NCBI RefSeq assembly: GCF_003019035.1
Contig: NZ_CP027447.1
Direction: 5' to 3' (one strand)
Origin: Escherichia coli
Lineage (GTDB): Bacteria > Pseudomonadota > Gammaproteobacteria > Enterobacterales > Enterobacteriaceae
Length of the DNA: 64,000 nucleotides
The notes under the pieces are model-generated. The model worked only from the letters and a program-made list of their open reading frames with translations. It was not told the DNA's origin and did no database searches. Shown here in pieces: positions 7,841-47,850 of this stretch. Made by a program: the position numbers and the translations under genes. Each line of letters starts with the position of its first letter. The stretch's first letter is position 1.

Positions 7841-7975
7841 AGTTTGCTCCTGCCATAACGTGAAGAAGCAATGACCTGGTGGTCCGTGACTTCCCTACGC
7901 TGGCATTATCCAGATCAGGTGATACGGGTATTTCTCAGCCTTTACGCAGAAGGGCACCCCGAGTCGTTTGGTTGC
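7841..7975 (-). promoter_or_regulatory. thiM 5' leader containing TPP (THI-box) riboswitch
   Basis: Minus-strand leader reads ..GGGGUGCCCUUCUGCGU.AAGGCUGAGAAAUACCCGUAUCACCUGAUCUGGAUAAUGCCAGCGUAGGGAAGUCACGGACCACCAGGUCAUUGCUUCUUCACGUUAUGGCAGGAGCAAACUAUG, the well-known thiM TPP aptamer with CUGAGA box and SD-sequestering expression platform. Confidence 0.9.
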
Positions 7976-8455: not shown

Positions 8456-9280
8456 ATGACCGAATTTACAACACTTCTTCAGCAAGGAAACGCCTGGTTC
8501 TTCATCCCCAGCGCCATCTTACTTGGTGCGCTTCATGGCCTGGAACCGGGGCACTCAAAAACGATGATGGCGGCGTTTATCATCGCCATCAAAGGCACCA
8601 TTAAACAGGCGGTGATGCTCGGACTGGCAGCAACCATTTCGCATACCGCAGTGGTCTGGTTAATTGCCTTTGGCGGGATGGTGATCAGCAAACGCTTTAC
8701 TGCTCAATCAGCAGAACCGTGGCTCCAGTTGATTTCCGCAGTGATCATTATTAGCACCGCGTTCTGGATGTTCTGGCGTACCTGGCGCGGCGAACGCAAC
8801 TGGCTGGAGAATATGCACGAGCATGATCATGAGCATCATCACCACGATCACGAAGATCACCACGACCATGGACATCATCACCATCACGAACATGGCGAGT
8901 ATCAGGATGCCCATGCACGAGCCCATGCCAATGACATTAAACGACGCTTTGATGGTAGAGAGGTCACCAACTGGCAAATTTTGCTATTTGGCTTAACCGG
9001 TGGCCTTATCCCCTGCCCGGCAGCAATTACCGTGCTGTTGATTTGCATTCAGTTGAAAGCCCTGACACTGGGCGCAACACTGGTCGTCAGTTTCAGCCTC
9101 GGCCTGGCGTTAACGCTTGTCACCGTAGGCGTTGGCGCAGCAATCAGCGTTCAGCAGGTCGCAAAACGCTGGAGCGGATTTAACACTCTCGCTAAACGCG
9201 CTCCCTATTTTTCCAGTCTGTTGATTGGCTTAGTTGGTGTGTATATGGGCGTACATGGCTTCATGGGCATAATGCGATAA
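8456..9280 (+). CDS. rcnA: Nickel/cobalt efflux membrane protein with His-rich cytoplasmic loop, 274 aa
   Basis: Polytopic membrane ORF with central His-rich segment (HEHDHEHHHHDHEDHHDHGHHHHHEHG) encoded by CAT/CAC-rich DNA ~8820-8900. Confidence 0.95.
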   Translation: MTEFTTLLQQGNAWFFIPSAILLGALHGLEPGHSKTMMAAFIIAIKGTIKQAVMLGLAATISHTAVVWLIAFGGMVISKRFTAQSAEPWLQLISAVIIISTAFWMFWRTWRGERNWLENMHEHDHEHHHHDHEDHHDHGHHHHHEHGEYQDAHARAHANDIKRRFDGREVTNWQILLFGLTGGLIPCPAAITVLLICIQLKALTLGATLVVSFSLGLALTLVTVGVGAAISVQQVAKRWSGFNTLAKRAPYFSSLLIGLVGVYMGVHGFMGIMR

Positions 9281-22842: not shown

Positions 22843-25800
22843 ATGGACAAGGAATTACCGTGGCTGGCGGATAACGCGCAACTGGAACTGAAATATAAAA
22901 AGGGTAAAACACCACTCAGCCATCGCAATTGGCCGGGTGAACCGGTGCCTGTTATCACTGAAAGCATCATCCAGACACTGGGTGATGAATTGCTACACAT
23001 TGCTGAGAAGAAAAAAAACATTGTCTGGCGTTATGATAATTTTTCACTGGAGTGGCAGTCCGCCATCACGCAGGCCATCAACTTGATCGGCGAACACAAA
23101 CCCTCAATCCCGGCCCGGACAATGGCGGCGCTAGCCTGTATCGCGCAAAATGATAGCCAACAGTTACTCGACGAAATCGTCCAACAAGAGGGACTGGAAT
23201 ATGCGACTGAAGTGGTGATTGCACGCCAGTTTATTGTACGGTGTTATGAGAGTGATCCTCTGGTAGTAACATTGCAGTATCAGAAGGAGGACTATGGCTA
23301 TGGCTATGGCTATGGCTATGGCTATGGCTATGGTTATCGCTCAGAAACCTATAACGAATTCGATCTCCGACTGCGTAAGCATCTCTCTCTGGCAGAGGAA
23401 AGCTGCTGGCAGCGTTGCGCCGACAAACTCATTGCCGCACTGCCAGGACTACCCCAAGTTCGCCGTCCTTTTATTGCACTCATCCTCCCGGAAAAACCAG
23501 AAATCGCCAATGAGTTGGTAGGCCTTGAATGCCCGTGGACTCATTTTCATTCTAAGGAGTGGTTAAAAGTTGTTGCTACTGACCACAGGGCAGTGGGAAA
23601 ACTCGAACGCTACTGGAGCCAGGATATATTTAGCGATCGCGAAGCCAGCTACATGTCGCATGAAAACCACTTCGGCTACGCGGCCTGCGCCGCCCTTTTG
23701 CGCGAACAAGGAATTGCAGCCGTTCCACGCCTCGCGATGTATGCCCATAAAGAAGATTGCGGTAGCCTGCTGGTACAAATTAACCATCCGCAGGTCATCC
23801 GCACCCTGCTGTTAGTTGCTGATAAAAACAAACCCAGCCTGCAACGTGTGGCTAAATACAGTAAAAACTTCCCCCATGCGACGCTTGCCGCACTGGCAGA
23901 GCTTCTGGCGTTAAAAGAACCGCCTGCACGCCCTGGTTATCCAATCATCGAAGACAAAAAGCTGCCTGCACAGCAAAAAGCTCGAGATGAATACTGGCGT
24001 ACGCTGTTACAAACGCTGATGGCATCGCAGCCACAACTGGCAGAAGAGGTGATGCCGTGGTTAAGTACTCAAGCCCAGGCAGTGCTGAATAGTTATTTAT
24101 CGGCACCGCCCAAAACGGTTATTGATAGCACCGATAACATCCAAATGCCTGAAATCCTCGTTTCACCACCGTGGCGTAGTAAGAAAAAAATGACAGTTCC
24201 ACGTCTTGATTTGGCACCGTTCGAATTAACGCCGCAAGTTTACTGGCAACCAGGCGAACGAGAGAGGCTTGCCGCCACTGAGTCTGCCCGTTATTTCAGC
24301 ACGGAATCTCTTGCGGAACGCATGGAACAAAAAAGTGGACGAGTTGTATTACAGGAGCTGGGTTTTGGAGATGATGTATGGCTGTTTTTGAATTATATAC
24401 TCCCCGGAAAACTGGATGCTGCACGCAATTCACTCATTGTTCAGTGGCATTACTACCCAGGGCGGGTTGAAGAGATCATGAATGGCTGGAGCTCCCCGGA
24501 AGCTCAATTAGCAGAACAGGCGCTTCGCAACGGTCACGTAGAAGTGTTAATTAACATATGGGAAAATGACAGCTACTCACGCTATCGTCGGGAAAAGAGT
24601 ATCTGGAACCTGTATTTATTGGCGCAGTTGCCGCGTGAGATGGCTTTGACTTTCTGGCTACGTATCAATGAGAAAAAGCATCTGTCTGCGGGTGAGGACT
24701 ATTATCTCAGTATCTTCGGATTGGATGCTCTACCAGGTCTGCTGTTGGCTTTTTCACATCGTCCAAAAGAAACATTTCCATTAATTTTAAATTTCGGCGC
24801 AACAGAACTGGCCCTGCCCGTTGCCCGCGTCTGGCGACGTTTCGCGGCGCAGCGTGATCTGGCTCGCCAGTGGATTTTACATTGGCCGGAACATACAGCT
24901 ACTGCACTTATCCCTCTTGTCTTCACCAAATCCAGCGATAATAGCGAAGCTGCATTACTTGCCCTGCGTTTACTTTACGAACAGGGACATGGCGAGTTAC
25001 TGCAAACCGTGGCAAACCGCTGGCAGCGTACAGATGTGTGGCCTGCCCTGGAGCAATTACTTAAACAGAGTCCAATAGAGATTTACCCGACACGCATTCC
25101 AAAAGCCCCTGATTTCTGGCAGCCGGCAATGTGGTCCAGGCCGCGCCTTATCACGAATAATCAACCTGTTACCGATGACGCTCTGGAAATTATCGGCGAA
25201 ATGCTGTGCTTTACCCAGGGCGGACGTTTTTATAGCGGACTGGAACAACTGAAAACTTTCTGCCAGCCGCAAACGCTGGCAGCTTTTGCCTGGGATCTCT
25301 TCACCGCGTGGCAACAAGCTGGTGCTACCGCAAAAGACAACTGGGCATTTCTGGCGTTAAGTCTCTTTGGCGACGAAAGCACGGCACGGGATCTGACGAC
25401 ACAGATCCTTGCCTGGCCACAAGAGGGCAAATCTGCCCGTGCTGTCAGTGGTCTGAATATACTTACTCAGATGAATAATGATATGGCACTGATACAGCTG
25501 CATCATATATCGCAACGGGCGAAATCCCGCCCCTTACGTGATAACGCGGCGGAATTTCTTCAGGTGGTCGCAGAAAATCGTGGGCTAAGCCAGGAACAGT
25601 TAGCGGACAGATTAGTCCCAACACTGGGTCTTGATGATCCGCAGGCGTTGAGTTTTGATTTTGGTCCCCGGCAGTTTACCGTTCGCTTTGATGAAAACCT
25701 TAACCCGGTTATCTTTGATCAGCAAAACGTTCGCCAGAAAAGCGTTCCCCGGTTGCGCGCCGATGACGATCAACTGAAAGCGCCCGAGGCACTGGCCCGA

Positions 25801-26565: not shown

Positions 26566-26886
26566 ATGATCGTGCAAAAAGAGCTGGTCACTATTTACGA
26601 TTATGAGGCCCCTGTACCTGAAGAGCCGTTTTCCTTCAGACTTGAGATCCATAAATGCTCTGAATTATTTACAGGTTCCATCTACCGGCTGGAGCGATTC
26701 CGGCTACATCCAACATTTCATCAACGTGATCGAGAGGATATCGACCCGCTAATAAATGATGCGTTGATTTATATAAGAGATGAGTTTATTGATGAGCGAA
26801 AATTACGGGGCGAATCACCAGAAACGGTAATAGCCATTTTTAATCGTGAACTACAGAATATATTCAACCAAGAAATAGAAAAATAG
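26566..26886 (+). CDS. yehK: Small acidic protein of unknown function, 106 aa
   Basis: ORF with GGGGGAAGCG upstream; no recognisable motif; recalled as YehK. Confidence 0.8.
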   Translation: MIVQKELVTIYDYEAPVPEEPFSFRLEIHKCSELFTGSIYRLERFRLHPTFHQRDREDIDPLINDALIYIRDEFIDERKLRGESPETVIAIFNRELQNIFNQEIEK

Positions 26887-26894
26887 CTTTATTA

Positions 26895-26920
26895 AAGGGG
26901 GGAAACGGTATTCCCCCTTA
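26895..26920. terminator. Bidirectional GC hairpin between convergent yehK and the small toxin-like gene
   Basis: GGGGGG-aaacggtatt-CCCCC stem-loop flanked by A/T; placed between the 3' ends of yehK (+) and the 29-codon ORF (-). Confidence 0.5.
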
Positions 26921-26940
26921 GATGCGTTTCAATTTGCCCG

Positions 26941-27030
26941 TTACTTCAACAAATCAATCAGCCGTAACAGAGCCACTAATAACTCCAGTACGGCAATGAG
27001 CACGGTTAACTTTTGTGTCAGCGTGTCCAT
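26941..27030 (-). CDS. zorO: 29-aa hydrophobic peptide, type I toxin-like (ZorO-like)
   Basis: Minus-strand ATG (27028-27030) with AAGGAGAG SD; translates to MDTLTQKLTVLIAVLELLVALLRLIDLLK, a single predicted TM helix; matches my recollection of ZorO from O157:H7; long structured 5' leader with an antisense target site. Confidence 0.65.
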   Translation of the reverse strand: MDTLTQKLTVLIAVLELLVALLRLIDLLK

Positions 27031-27211
27031 CCGCTCTCCTTATTAAGGAGCGCAACACCAGCATCTTACCCTTACACTGCCTGTCGATACTGGTTTACGT
27101 ATGTTGGACCACGATGTTGCACTCCGGATCAGGGCACTACCTGCGGCACCACCCGTCCGGTAGCCAGGACTTGAAATGGGTTCGATCCGGCGCAACGTCC
27201 CAACAGTCAGG

Positions 27212-27262
27212 ATTATAAATCTCATTATCTTAATTGCAACGGGGTCCACCGATGGTTATAAT
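27212..27262. promoter_or_regulatory. Back-to-back sigma70-like promoters sharing one palindromic -35 hexamer (TTGCAA): minus-strand promoter for the toxin mRNA and plus-strand promoter for the antisense sRNA
   Basis: Plus: TTGCAA (27234-27239) -17 nt- TATAAT (27257-27262); minus: TTGCAA -16 nt- TATAAT (complement of 27212-27217); the minus promoter predicts a ~170-nt 5' UTR for the toxin. Confidence 0.55.
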
Positions 27263-27268
27263 TCGTTC

Positions 27269-27352
27269 GTTGGAACACGATGTTGCACAGGCCGTGGTGT
27301 TAGGCCTGAAAGTAGTAAATAAAAGAACCTGCCTCACCAGCAGGTTTTTTTA
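27269..27352 (+). ncRNA. orzO: Candidate antitoxin sRNA (OrzO-like), ~80 nt, divergent from the toxin gene
   Basis: Starts ~7 nt after TATAAT; 5' seed GTTGGAACACGATGTTGCAC (27269-27288) is 19/20 identical to 27103-27122, so it is complementary to the toxin mRNA leader; internal hairpin CAGGCC..GGCCTG; ends in intrinsic terminator. Confidence 0.55.
27326..27352 (+). terminator. Rho-independent terminator of the candidate sRNA
   Basis: AACCTGC-ctcacca-GCAGGTT stem-loop followed by TTTTTTT. Confidence 0.8.
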
Positions 27353-27462
27353 TTTACTATGATCTGCTTTCCAGATATTTTCCGCTCAAACAACTAATGC
27401 GCCAAACATTTATTGCGCGTAAAATATCGTTTATTTCATTAATACATTTCAGGGATGAATAT

Positions 27463-28551
27463 ATGTCACCGCAGAATAATCATCTGCAGCGTCCGCCTGC
27501 CGCTGTGTTATACGCCGATGAACTGGCAAAATTAAAACAAAATGATCACGCACCTTGCCCGCCCGGTTGGCAGTTAAGTTTGCCTGCGGCCCGTGTTTTT
27601 ATCCTTGGCGACGAAGCACAAAATATTAGCCGTAAAGTCGTGATTAGCCCCTCCGCTGTCGAACGCATGTTAGTCACTCTCGCTACCGGGCGCGGTTTGA
27701 TGTTGGTGGGGGAACCTGGCACCGCAAAATCGCTCCTGTCTGAATTACTGGCAACCGCTATTAGCGGCGATGCCGGGTTAACCATCCAGGGCGGCGCATC
27801 TACTACTGAAGATCAAATCAAGTACGGCTGGAACTACGCCCTGCTTATCAACCATGGTCCGTCAACGGAAGCACTGGTCCCTGCCCCGCTTTACCAGGGA
27901 ATGCGCGACGGCAAAATCGTCCGTTTTGAAGAGATAACGCGTACACCGCTGGAAGTACAAGACTGTCTGTTAGGTATGCTTTCTGACAGGGTGATGACGG
28001 TGCCGGAGCTCACCGCTGAAGCCAGTCAGCTCTATGCGCGGGAAGGCTTTAATATTATTGCCACTGCCAATACCCGCGATCGCGGCGTCAATGAAATGAG
28101 TGCTGCGCTAAAGCGTCGTTTCGATTTTGAAACTGTCTTTCCGATTATGGATTTCGCTCAGGAGCTGGAGCTTGTCGCCAGTGCTTCGGCGCGTTTGCTG
28201 GCCCATAGCGGTATTCCGCATAAAGTGCCTGACGCGGTACTGGAGTTACTGGTCCGCACCTTCCGCGATCTGCGTGCCAACGGCGAAAAGAAAACGTCAA
28301 TGGATACACTAACAGCGATTATGTCCACCGCTGAAGCCGTGAACGTGGCCCACGCTGTGGGCGTCCGCGCCTGGTTTTTAGCGAATCGCGCAGGTGAGCC
28401 AGCCGATCTGGTGGACTGTATTGCCGGAACCATCGTCAAAGATAACGAAGAAGATCGCGCGCGTCTGCGCCGTTACTTCGAACAGCGAGTCGCCACACAT
28501 AATGAAGCTCACTGGCAGGCTTATTATCAAGCTCGCCACCGCCTGCCGTGA
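27463..28551 (+). CDS. yehL: MoxR-like AAA+ ATPase (CbbQ/NirQ/NorQ-type), 362 aa
   Basis: Walker A LMLVGEPGTAKS, Walker B-like KIVRFEEITR; start ATG 27463 (MSPQNNHLQRPP..) chosen over ORF-track 27397. Confidence 0.9.
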   Translation: MSPQNNHLQRPPAAVLYADELAKLKQNDHAPCPPGWQLSLPAARVFILGDEAQNISRKVVISPSAVERMLVTLATGRGLMLVGEPGTAKSLLSELLATAISGDAGLTIQGGASTTEDQIKYGWNYALLINHGPSTEALVPAPLYQGMRDGKIVRFEEITRTPLEVQDCLLGMLSDRVMTVPELTAEASQLYAREGFNIIATANTRDRGVNEMSAALKRRFDFETVFPIMDFAQELELVASASARLLAHSGIPHKVPDAVLELLVRTFRDLRANGEKKTSMDTLTAIMSTAEAVNVAHAVGVRAWFLANRAGEPADLVDCIAGTIVKDNEEDRARLRRYFEQRVATHNEAHWQAYYQARHRLP

Positions 28552-47677: not shown

Positions 47678-47850
47678 GATGAGCATTCAGATAGTGGTTC
47701 ACGCGCACGGGTTGCGCACCGCCGGAGTAAGGATTTACTGAGGCTAGCGACGCCATCATAACGAGCAAAAAGTGCGATCGTCAAAGAAGAATCGTGAGGA
47801 AATGCTGCATTGCTGACATTTACGCCAGCAATGCAGCGCAAAAGAACTTT

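What the first reader, a model, noticed from the sequence alone, without database searches (positions are those of the whole stretch)
26941..27352. Type I toxin-antitoxin-like locus (29-aa hydrophobic toxin with long 5' leader plus divergent antisense sRNA), absent from K-12 as far as I recall
A minus-strand 29-codon ORF with a strong SD (AAGGAGAG) encodes MDTLTQKLTVLIAVLELLVALLRLIDLLK, a single amphipathic or TM helix typical of type I toxins; it matches my recollection of ZorO. About 240 nt upstream on the opposite strand, a promoter-sRNA-terminator unit carries a 20-nt seed that is 19/20 identical to a segment of the toxin 5' leader (27269-27288 vs 27103-27122), so it would base-pair with it. 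The sRNA has a classic layout: single-stranded seed, internal hairpin, A-rich linker, intrinsic terminator. The K-12 yehK-yehL spacer, as I recall it, lacks this, which implies a strain-variable insertion.
Basis: partly seen in the sequence, partly recalled or inferred. Interest (0 to 1): 0.65.

Follow-up and report, generated by a model that had tools for sequence, protein, structure and literature searches.

The report
Known zor/orz type I toxin-antitoxin locus

Summary
A 29-codon minus-strand ORF (26941-27030) encodes MDTLTQKLTVLIAVLELLVALLRLIDLLK. A divergent plus-strand promoter, sRNA and terminator unit spans 27269-27352. The first 20 nt of the sRNA match the toxin 5' UTR at 19 of 20 positions (27103-27122; 0.01 such matches expected by chance).

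The locus is the known zor/orz type I toxin-antitoxin system of the yehK-yehL spacer (Fozo 2010; Wen 2014, 2017; Shore 2024). The sRNA hits Rfam RF02083 (OrzO-P) at 98.9 bits against a gathering score of 60. The peptide is identical to ZorO. [quoted passage not shown]

- The regulatory RNA parts are OrzP/zorP-type (V1 = ACG), not O-type, although the peptide is ZorO.
- K-12 is not empty. It keeps an intact orzP gene, the zor promoter and roughly 30 nt of the UTR (published as OrzPmg).
- The polymorphism is therefore better read as a toxin deletion in K-12, not an insertion here.

The toxin part occurs in 3397 of 5426 complete E. coli genomes, and an orz gene in 5231. Novelty: already known. 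Interest is low.

The parts
26941..27030 (-). zor toxin ORF, 29 aa, MDTLTQKLTVLIAVLELLVALLRLIDLLK. It is identical to ZorO and contains the ALLRL motif required for toxicity.
   Evidence: ZorO/ZorP/ZorQ definitions in PMC11264685; ALLRL in PMC6669753
26895..26919 (-). G+C-rich hairpin just 3' of the zor stop codon (GGGGGAA...TTCCCCCC), the presumed zor terminator. It also lies just 3' of yehK on the other strand.
   Evidence: I2; present in the fold; not called by the simple terminator scan, so inferred
27036..27041 (-). Shine-Dalgarno AAGGAG (+164..+169 of the mRNA), buried in a local hairpin (arms 27033-27042 / 27044-27053).
   Evidence: unpaired probability 0.07; I5; same numbering as PMC5397157
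27031..27204 (-). zor 5' UTR, 174 nt if transcription starts at 27204 (7 nt after the -10).
   Evidence: length equals the published zorO UTR; the start site itself is inferred by homology
27103..27122 (-). Orz binding site in the zor 5' UTR (+83..+102; 73-92 nt upstream of the ATG). It is P-type (complement of GTTGGACCACGATGTTGCAC).
   Evidence: published position 72-92 nt upstream
27103..27132 (-). Equivalent of the EAP region (+73..+102). In the full-length mRNA it is predicted to pair with the mRNA's own 5' end (+1..+22). It includes the conserved GGAGUG motif at 27120-27125.
   Evidence: partners; 5' end:EAP pairing 0.90; PMC5397157 and PMC11264685
27212..27217 (-). zor promoter -10 hexamer TATAAT.
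   Evidence: conserved in 15 of 15 sampled units
27234..27239 (.). Palindromic -35 hexamer TTGCAA used by both divergent promoters (zor on -, orz on +).
27257..27262 (+). orz promoter -10 hexamer TATAAT.
27269..27352 (+). Orz antitoxin sRNA, about 84 nt, OrzP specificity class (V1 at +9..+11 = ACG). The Rfam model covers 27276-27351.
   Evidence: RF02083, 98.9 bits; +1 fixed by the published V1 numbering; published size about 85 nt
27269..27288 (+). Seed: 6 bp, one A.G mismatch at +7, then 13 bp with the zor UTR.
27288..27308 (+). Internal hairpin of the sRNA (CAGGCC / GGCCUG).
27320..27352 (+). Intrinsic terminator of the sRNA (13-bp stem, 7-nt loop, U-run).
   Evidence: I1

Best explanation
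The region is one intact copy of the zor/orz type I toxin-antitoxin locus in the yehK-yehL spacer of an E. coli chromosome.

Toxin side:
- The minus strand is transcribed from a TTGCAA/TATAAT promoter, starting near 27204.
- The mRNA has a 174-nt structured 5' UTR and encodes the 29-aa inner-membrane toxin ZorO.
- In the full-length mRNA the first ~22 nt pair with +73..+102 and the SD is buried in a hairpin, so translation is poor.
- Removal of the first ~28 nt exposes +73..+102 (the EAP, a putative ribosome standby region) and activates translation.

Antitoxin side:
- The plus strand, from a promoter that shares the same -35 hexamer, gives an ~84-nt sRNA of the OrzP class.
- Its 5' 20 nt pair with +83..+102 of the zor mRNA (19 bp with one mismatch).
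- This pairing blocks the standby region and triggers RNase III-dependent decay, so toxin is not made while the sRNA is present.

What is shown here: sequence identity of all elements, the complementarity, the predicted folds, the distribution across genomes, and co-variation of seed and target across alleles.

What is shown in the literature, for the EDL933 O-type pair: toxicity, rescue by the sRNA, RNase III dependence, processing and the EAP. Toxicity of Z3290/ZorP and expression of both sRNAs are also published.

What is inferred: that this P-type pair in this strain behaves the same way.
For: - Rfam RF02083 OrzO-P hit at 27276-27351, 98.9 bits against a gathering score of 60, E = 1.5e-16.
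- The peptide is identical to the yehK-proximal (zorO) copy of O157:H7.
- The genomic position is the same as in O157:H7 and as in Fozo 2010.
- The seed matches the target at 19 of 20 positions, with 0.01 such matches expected by chance.
- With a start at 27204, the UTR is 174 nt, the RBS is at +164-169 and the target is at +83-102. These are the published coordinates.
- V1 = ACG identifies the OrzP class.
- Across 15 units from 11 genomes there are four seed/target allele classes. Each cognate pair keeps 19 of 20 paired positions. Most non-cognate combinations keep 15-18 of 20, with runs of at most 9. This is natural compensatory variation.
- The pairing of 6 + 13 bp with one internal mismatch exceeds the experimentally defined minimum of 17 discontinuous bp.
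- The promoter hexamers and their geometry are invariant in 15 of 15 units although the spacers vary.
- The predicted fold reproduces 5' end:EAP pairing (0.90) and a sequestered SD (unpaired probability 0.07).
- The toxin segment is present in 3397 of 5426 complete E. coli genomes and an orz gene in 5231. This matches the published copy-number survey.
Against: - No expression or toxicity data exist for this strain.
- Direct repression of zorP-type mRNA by OrzP was not found in the papers read. Only the O-type pair and V1-swap mutants were tested.
- The physiological role is unresolved. A single chromosomal copy gave no aminoglycoside growth benefit, and the benefit of multicopy zor-orz is independent of toxicity.
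- The MFE of the sRNA puts part of the seed in a weak hairpin.
Confidence: 0.96

Rival explanations
1. It is the zorO-orzO pair proper, the experimentally characterised O-type allele of EDL933, rather than a P-type locus.
For: The peptide is identical to ZorO (T3, A20). The coding region and its 3' flank match O157 copy 1 at the four sites where the two O157 copies differ.
Against: The sRNA V1 is ACG, not GAA. The target is GTTGGACCACGATGTTGCAC, identical to the zorP target of O157. The promoter spacers and the sRNA body match copy 2/orzP. Coding-region polymorphisms are mosaic across seed classes, so they do not define the class. Six of seven sampled P-type units encode the ZorO peptide. OrzP does not repress zorO experimentally, so the class matters for specificity.
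Confidence: 0.02
2. The single copy is a recombinant formed by unequal crossover between a tandem zorO-orzO/zorP-orzP pair, joining the zorO coding region to the zorP UTR and orzP.
For: In a comparison with O157:H7 only, the left part (CDS and 3' flank) looks like copy 1 and the right part (from the target onward) looks like copy 2. An identical stretch between them could host a crossover.
Against: With more genomes, the CDS sites vary independently of seed class. The P-type copy of a two-copy strain (O43 RM10042) also encodes the ZorO peptide. The O157 zorP T3S state is therefore the exception, and no recombination is needed. Published figures agree: 72.5% of all zor ORFs encode ZorO.
Confidence: 0.1
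3. The sRNA's main job is not, or not only, toxin repression. It acts in trans on other mRNAs, and the toxin is a dispensable passenger.
For: About one third of E. coli genomes (5231 - 3397 = 1834 of 5426) keep orz without the toxin segment. K-12 keeps an intact orzP with its promoter. It is expressed there, and its sequence is highly conserved in orz-only strains.
Against: No other target is known. Seed and target co-vary between alleles, which shows selection on the cognate interaction. Retention of an antitoxin after loss of the toxin is neutral and expected.
Confidence: 0.15
4. It is a decayed, non-functional remnant or a chance ORF and hairpin.
For: RefSeq annotates nothing here in any sampled genome, and NCBIfam has no model for the peptide.
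Against: All elements are intact: both promoters at 10 of 12, the SD, the 29-codon ORF, the target, the seed and the terminator. The Rfam score is far above threshold. The locus is conserved in thousands of genomes. The missing annotation reflects the absence of a model for a 29-aa protein, not absence of the gene.
Confidence: 0.01

Closest known systems
zorP-orzP (Z3290 / sRNA-2) of E. coli O157:H7 EDL933
   Same: Same yehL-proximal position. The seed (GTTGGAACACGATGTTGCAC) and target are identical, V1 = ACG, the promoter hexamers are the same, and the 5' UTR architecture is the same. The sRNA differs at only 2 positions, one in the hairpin loop and one in the linker.
   Different: The peptide here has T3 (ZorO sequence), whereas EDL933 ZorP has S3. 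Here the locus is single-copy, whereas EDL933 has a tandem pair.
zorO-orzO (Z3289 / sRNA-1) of EDL933, the experimentally dissected pair
   Same: The 29-aa peptide is identical. The 174-nt UTR, RBS position, EAP position, divergent ~85-nt sRNA acting through its 5' end, terminator and shared promoter geometry are all the same.
   Different: The seed/target allele differs (GAA versus ACG in V1, plus neighbouring positions). O-type has 18 contiguous pairs, whereas here there are 6 + 13 with an A.G mismatch. The internal sRNA hairpin sequence differs. OrzP does not cross-repress zorO.
OrzPmg, the orphan orzP of E. coli K-12 MG1655
   Same: The K-12 orz gene has the same seed. It differs from the window sRNA at 2 positions and is identical to the EDL933 orzP.
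   Different: K-12 has lost the toxin ORF, the SD and the Orz target. It keeps only the zor promoter and about 30 nt of the UTR. The window has the full pair.
tisB-istR1, shoB-ohsC and dinQ-agrB (divergently encoded type I systems of E. coli)
   Same: The sRNA is divergent rather than overlapping. Complementarity is short (18-21 nt) and lies in a long 5' UTR far upstream of the RBS. The mRNA is activated by 5' processing, with a standby-type translation mechanism.
   Different: No sequence homology was tested or claimed here, and the toxins are different. [quoted passage not shown]

Membership tests
zor/orz type I toxin-antitoxin locus | A 29-aa hydrophobic Zor peptide (ZorO, or a T3S/A20S variant) containing the ALLRL motif | tested here: met
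   The ORF at 26941-27030 translates to a peptide identical to the zorO product of O157:H7. Variant definitions are from PMC11264685 and ALLRL from PMC6669753.
zor/orz type I toxin-antitoxin locus | A divergently encoded ~85-nt sRNA that matches the Rfam OrzO-P covariance model | tested here: met
   RF02083 at 98.9 bits against a gathering score of 60, full-length match to model positions 1-76.
zor/orz type I toxin-antitoxin locus | [quoted passage not shown] At least 15 contiguous or at least 17 discontinuous pairs are needed. | tested here: met
   19 of 20 positions (6 + 13), located 73-92 nt upstream of the ATG.
zor/orz type I toxin-antitoxin locus | Chromosomal position between yehK (yehI) and yehL | tested here: met
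   The flanking ORFs are YehI, YehK and YehL. The context is the same in O157:H7, K-12 and 9 other genomes.
zor/orz type I toxin-antitoxin locus | Conserved promoter hexamers (-35 TTGCAA, -10 TATAAT) for both genes, RBS AAGGAG, and a 174-nt UTR | tested here: met
   Published conservation is in Table 3.
zor/orz type I toxin-antitoxin locus | Peptide toxic on overproduction; toxicity relieved by the cognate sRNA; RNase III-dependent | not testable with these tools
   Shown for EDL933 zorO/orzO, and toxicity was also shown for Z3290. Not shown for this strain, and not found for the P-type pair's repression.
OrzP specificity class (as opposed to OrzO or OrzQ) | V1 (+9..+11) = ACG in the sRNA, with a matching target | tested here: met
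   The seed GTTGGAACACGATGTTGCAC has ACG at +9..+11. The seed and target are identical to those of O157 copy 2.
ZorP protein variant | T3S substitution relative to ZorO | tested here: not met
   The window peptide has T3, so the protein is ZorO even though the RNA class is P.

The most novel reading that the evidence does not exclude
The toxin and antitoxin promoters are built back-to-back on a single palindromic -35 hexamer (TTGCAA, 27234-27239). The geometry -10/16 nt/-35/17 nt/-10 is invariant in all 15 sampled units of four allele classes, although the spacer sequences vary. Two RNA polymerases probably cannot engage the shared hexamer at once, so zor and orz transcription initiation could be mutually exclusive in each cell. 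That would be a transcriptional toggle layered on the known post-transcriptional control. I did not find this discussed in the papers read, but the promoter boxes are drawn in a published figure that I could not see.
Probability: 0.2. Interest if true: 0.35.

Novelty: already known. Interest (0 to 1): 0.08.

Why it matters
It matters little as a discovery. The locus was found in 2010, dissected mechanistically in 2014 and 2017, and surveyed across more than 2,000 E. coli genomes in 2024, including the single-copy state and the orz-only state of K-12.

Its practical value is for annotation:
- RefSeq/PGAP annotates neither the 29-aa toxin nor the sRNA in any of the 12 genomes inspected, and NCBIfam has no model for the peptide. 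The spacer therefore looks empty in standard annotation.
- The case shows that the protein name (ZorO) and the RNA specificity class (P) are decoupled in most strains. This matters when predicting which sRNA controls which toxin.

Tried and rejected
1. Hybrid or recombinant origin (zorO CDS joined to zorP UTR/orzP). A four-way alignment with O157 suggested it. It was rejected after sampling nine more genomes. CDS polymorphisms are mosaic across seed classes, and 6 of 7 P-type units encode the ZorO peptide.

2. An 'SD-mimic' switch. The EAP motif GGAGUGCAACA (+80-90) is complementary to the anti-SD strand UGUUGCGCUCC (+148-158) (I3). After removal of 28 nt it is predicted to pair with that strand in some molecules. 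However, this is a minority conformer (0.13-0.33) in P-type only and is absent in the experimentally probed O-type. Published probing found no change at the RBS on processing. I did not pursue it further.

3. NCBIfam search with the peptide returned no family.

4. A second, sub-threshold OrzO-P hit on the minus strand (27321-27431, 27.9 bits), and weak Thr/Trp leader hits. These are artefacts of the palindromic terminator.

5. 'Insertion in this strain' as the origin of the polymorphism. I rejected it in favour of deletion in K-12, because K-12 keeps the zor promoter, about 30 nt of the UTR and an intact orzP.

Full report
**Observation**

The region was read on both strands and ORFs were listed.
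- The minus-strand ORF at 26941..27030 is 29 codons, starts with ATG and encodes MDTLTQKLTVLIAVLELLVALLRLIDLLK.
- It is preceded by AAGGAG (27036-27041, minus strand), 5 nt before the ATG.
- The plus-strand 20-mer at 27269-27288 (GTTGGAACACGATGTTGCAC) recurs once in the 64-kb window, at 27103-27122, with one mismatch. A dinucleotide-preserving shuffle expects 0.01 such matches. The repeat extends to 22 of 25 positions.
- The two copies lie on the same DNA strand, and the two transcripts come from opposite strands. The plus-strand RNA is therefore complementary to the minus-strand mRNA.
- A consensus scan finds exactly two promoter-like sites in 26800-27500, both scoring 10 of 12. One is TTGCAA-17-TATAAT on the plus strand (27234-27262). 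The other is TTGCAA-16-TATAAT on the minus strand (27239-27212).
- The 84-nt plus-strand unit folds into an internal hairpin, an A-rich linker and a 13-bp terminator stem followed by U's. Its MFE is -28.9 kcal/mol, z = -3.3.
- Predicted duplex energy between its first 25 nt and the mRNA is -34.4 kcal/mol, against -20.6 +/- 2.6 for shuffled seeds.

**Identity**

- A covariance-model scan against Rfam gives a full-length hit of 27276-27351 (+) to RF02083, 'OrzO-P RNA antitoxin family'. The score is 98.9 bits against a gathering score of 60, E = 1.5e-16. It is one of only three Rfam hits in the whole window.
- The flanking ORFs are YehI, YehK and YehL.
- In E. coli O157:H7 the same yehK-yehL spacer is 1.24 kb and holds two tandem toxin/sRNA units, both hitting RF02083.
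- This is the locus discovered as Z3289/Z3290 'between yehI and yehL' by Fozo et al. 2010 (PMC2887945). [quoted passage not shown]
- Wen et al. 2014 renamed it zorO-orzO/zorP-orzP (PMC3919570).
- In the window the target lies 73-92 nt upstream of the ATG, and the sRNA starts 239 nt upstream of it.

**Mapping published landmarks**

Wen et al. 2017 (PMC5397157) report four landmarks for zorO:
- a 174-nt 5' UTR;
- the RBS at +164..+169;
- an 'exposed after processing' (EAP) region at +73..+102;

If the window mRNA starts at 27204, 7 nt downstream of the minus-strand TATAAT, the window reproduces these positions: the UTR is exactly 174 nt, AAGGAG falls at +164..+169, and the sRNA target falls at +83..+102.

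The conserved GGAGUG motif, which Shore et al. 2024 showed contributes to toxicity, is at +80..+85 (27120-27125).

Thermodynamic folding of the window mRNA reproduces the published logic:
- The first 22 nt pair with the EAP region (pairing probability 0.90).
- The SD is sequestered (unpaired probability 0.07).
- The mRNA 5' end (GUUGGGACGUUGC...) resembles the sRNA seed (GUUGGAACACGAUGUUGC...), and both pair with the same stretch.

**Which allele**

Wen 2014 define a 3-nt variable region V1 at +9..+11 of the sRNA: GAA in OrzO and ACG in OrzP. OrzP cannot repress zorO. That numbering fixes +1 at the G of GTTGG, which is window position 27269.
- The window sRNA has ACG.
- Its seed and target are identical to those of the yehL-proximal O157 copy, zorP/orzP.
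- The sRNA body differs from O157 OrzP at two positions only.
- The peptide, however, is the ZorO sequence (T3), not ZorP (S3).

I first suspected a zorO-CDS/zorP-UTR recombinant. Sampling nine more genomes showed that coding-region polymorphisms are mosaic across seed classes. Six of seven P-type units encode the ZorO peptide. This fits the published figure that 72.5% of all zor ORFs encode ZorO.

The correct description is therefore a single-copy P-class zor/orz locus encoding the majority ZorO peptide.

**Natural compensatory evidence**

The 15 units sampled from 11 genomes fall into four seed/target classes.
- Every cognate pair keeps 19 of 20 paired positions.
- Most non-cognate combinations keep 15-18 of 20, with contiguous runs of at most 9.
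- The exception is two classes that share a target.

This is the pattern expected if the interaction is under selection. The window pair (6 + 13 bp, with an A.G mismatch at sRNA +7) exceeds the experimentally defined minimum of 17 discontinuous pairs.

**K-12 and distribution**

That is only partly true.
- The K-12 spacer (JM83 and MG1655) has lost the toxin ORF, the SD and the Orz target.
- It retains the zor promoter, about 30 nt of the UTR and an intact orzP gene with its promoter. That gene hits RF02083 at 99.9 bits.
- This is published. Shore et al. 2024 named it OrzPmg, detected it by northern blot, and found orz-only loci in about 30% of genomes.
- The polymorphism is therefore better explained by deletion of the toxin than by insertion in this strain.

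In 5,426 complete E. coli genomes:

| State | Genomes | Share |
|---|---|---|
| Match to the whole-locus query | 5231 | 96% |
| Match to the toxin/UTR segment (median two copies) | 3397 | 63% |
| orz only | about 1834 | 34% |
| No match | 195 | 3.6% |

The published survey gave 3% with no match, about 30% orz-only, 25% with one copy and 42% with two.

**Mechanism and what is inferred**

For the EDL933 O-type pair the literature shows:
- ZorO overproduction causes growth stasis, membrane depolarisation, ATP loss and hydroxyl-radical production.
- OrzO rescues through its first 18 nt.
- Repression is Hfq-independent and largely RNase III-dependent.
- OrzO can also block translation by occupying the EAP region.

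Z3290 (ZorP) toxicity and expression of both sRNAs were shown in 2010. I did not find a direct OrzP-zorP rescue experiment. Function of this P-type pair is therefore inferred from homology, complementarity and the V1-swap experiments. The physiological role remains open.

**Verdict**

This is a correct identification of an already well-described system. The remaining open point I saw is that both promoters use one palindromic -35 hexamer in an invariant geometry. That could impose mutually exclusive initiation. This is speculative and may already be evident in published figures that I could not view.

Noticed in passing
window 23292-23341 (inside yehI): A hexanucleotide tandem repeat (CTATGG x 8.3) encodes (GY)7 at YehI residue 152. 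MG1655 YehI has (GY)2, giving 1210 aa against 1220 aa here. SCU-301 yehI is annotated 30 nt longer still. This is an in-frame, length-variable microsatellite in a DUF4132 protein.
   Followed up: partly
window 27234-27239: The divergent zor and orz promoters share one palindromic -35 hexamer, TTGCAA. The -10/16/-35/17/-10 geometry is invariant in 15 units of four allele classes, while the spacer sequences vary.
   Followed up: partly
window 27183-27204 (-) versus 27269-27288 (+): The zor mRNA 5' end (GUUGGGACGUUGC...) resembles the Orz seed (GUUGGAACACGAUGUUGC...). Both are predicted to pair with the same UTR stretch (+83..+102), so the mRNA leader acts as a built-in cis version of the antitoxin until it is processed off.
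   Followed up: partly
window 27115-27125 versus 27047-27057: In P-type UTRs the EAP motif GGAGUGCAACA is complementary to the anti-SD strand UGUUGCGCUCC. After removal of 28 nt it is predicted as a minority conformer that would free the SD. This is not predicted for O-type UTRs.
   Followed up: partly
L001-L012 (yehK-yehL spacers of 12 RefSeq genomes): Neither the 29-aa zor ORF nor the orz sRNA is annotated in any RefSeq record inspected, including MG1655. NCBIfam has no model for the peptide.
   Followed up: yes
L006, L007, L010 (Z247, IHE3034, M16807): yehK is annotated as frameshifted in several strains. In IHE3034, yehI and yehM are also annotated as frameshifted. The yeh operon next to the locus seems prone to pseudogenisation, or these are assembly errors.
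   Followed up: no
window 7875-7971 (-): TPP riboswitch (RF00059, 72 bits).
   Followed up: no
window 47682-47762 (-): Peptidase-S11 RNA motif (RF03039, 72.8 bits against a gathering score of 34.8).
   Followed up: no
window 8837-8893: An 18-nt tandem repeat x 3.2 (CATCACCACGATCACGAA), which would encode a His/Asp-rich repeat if it is coding.
   Followed up: no
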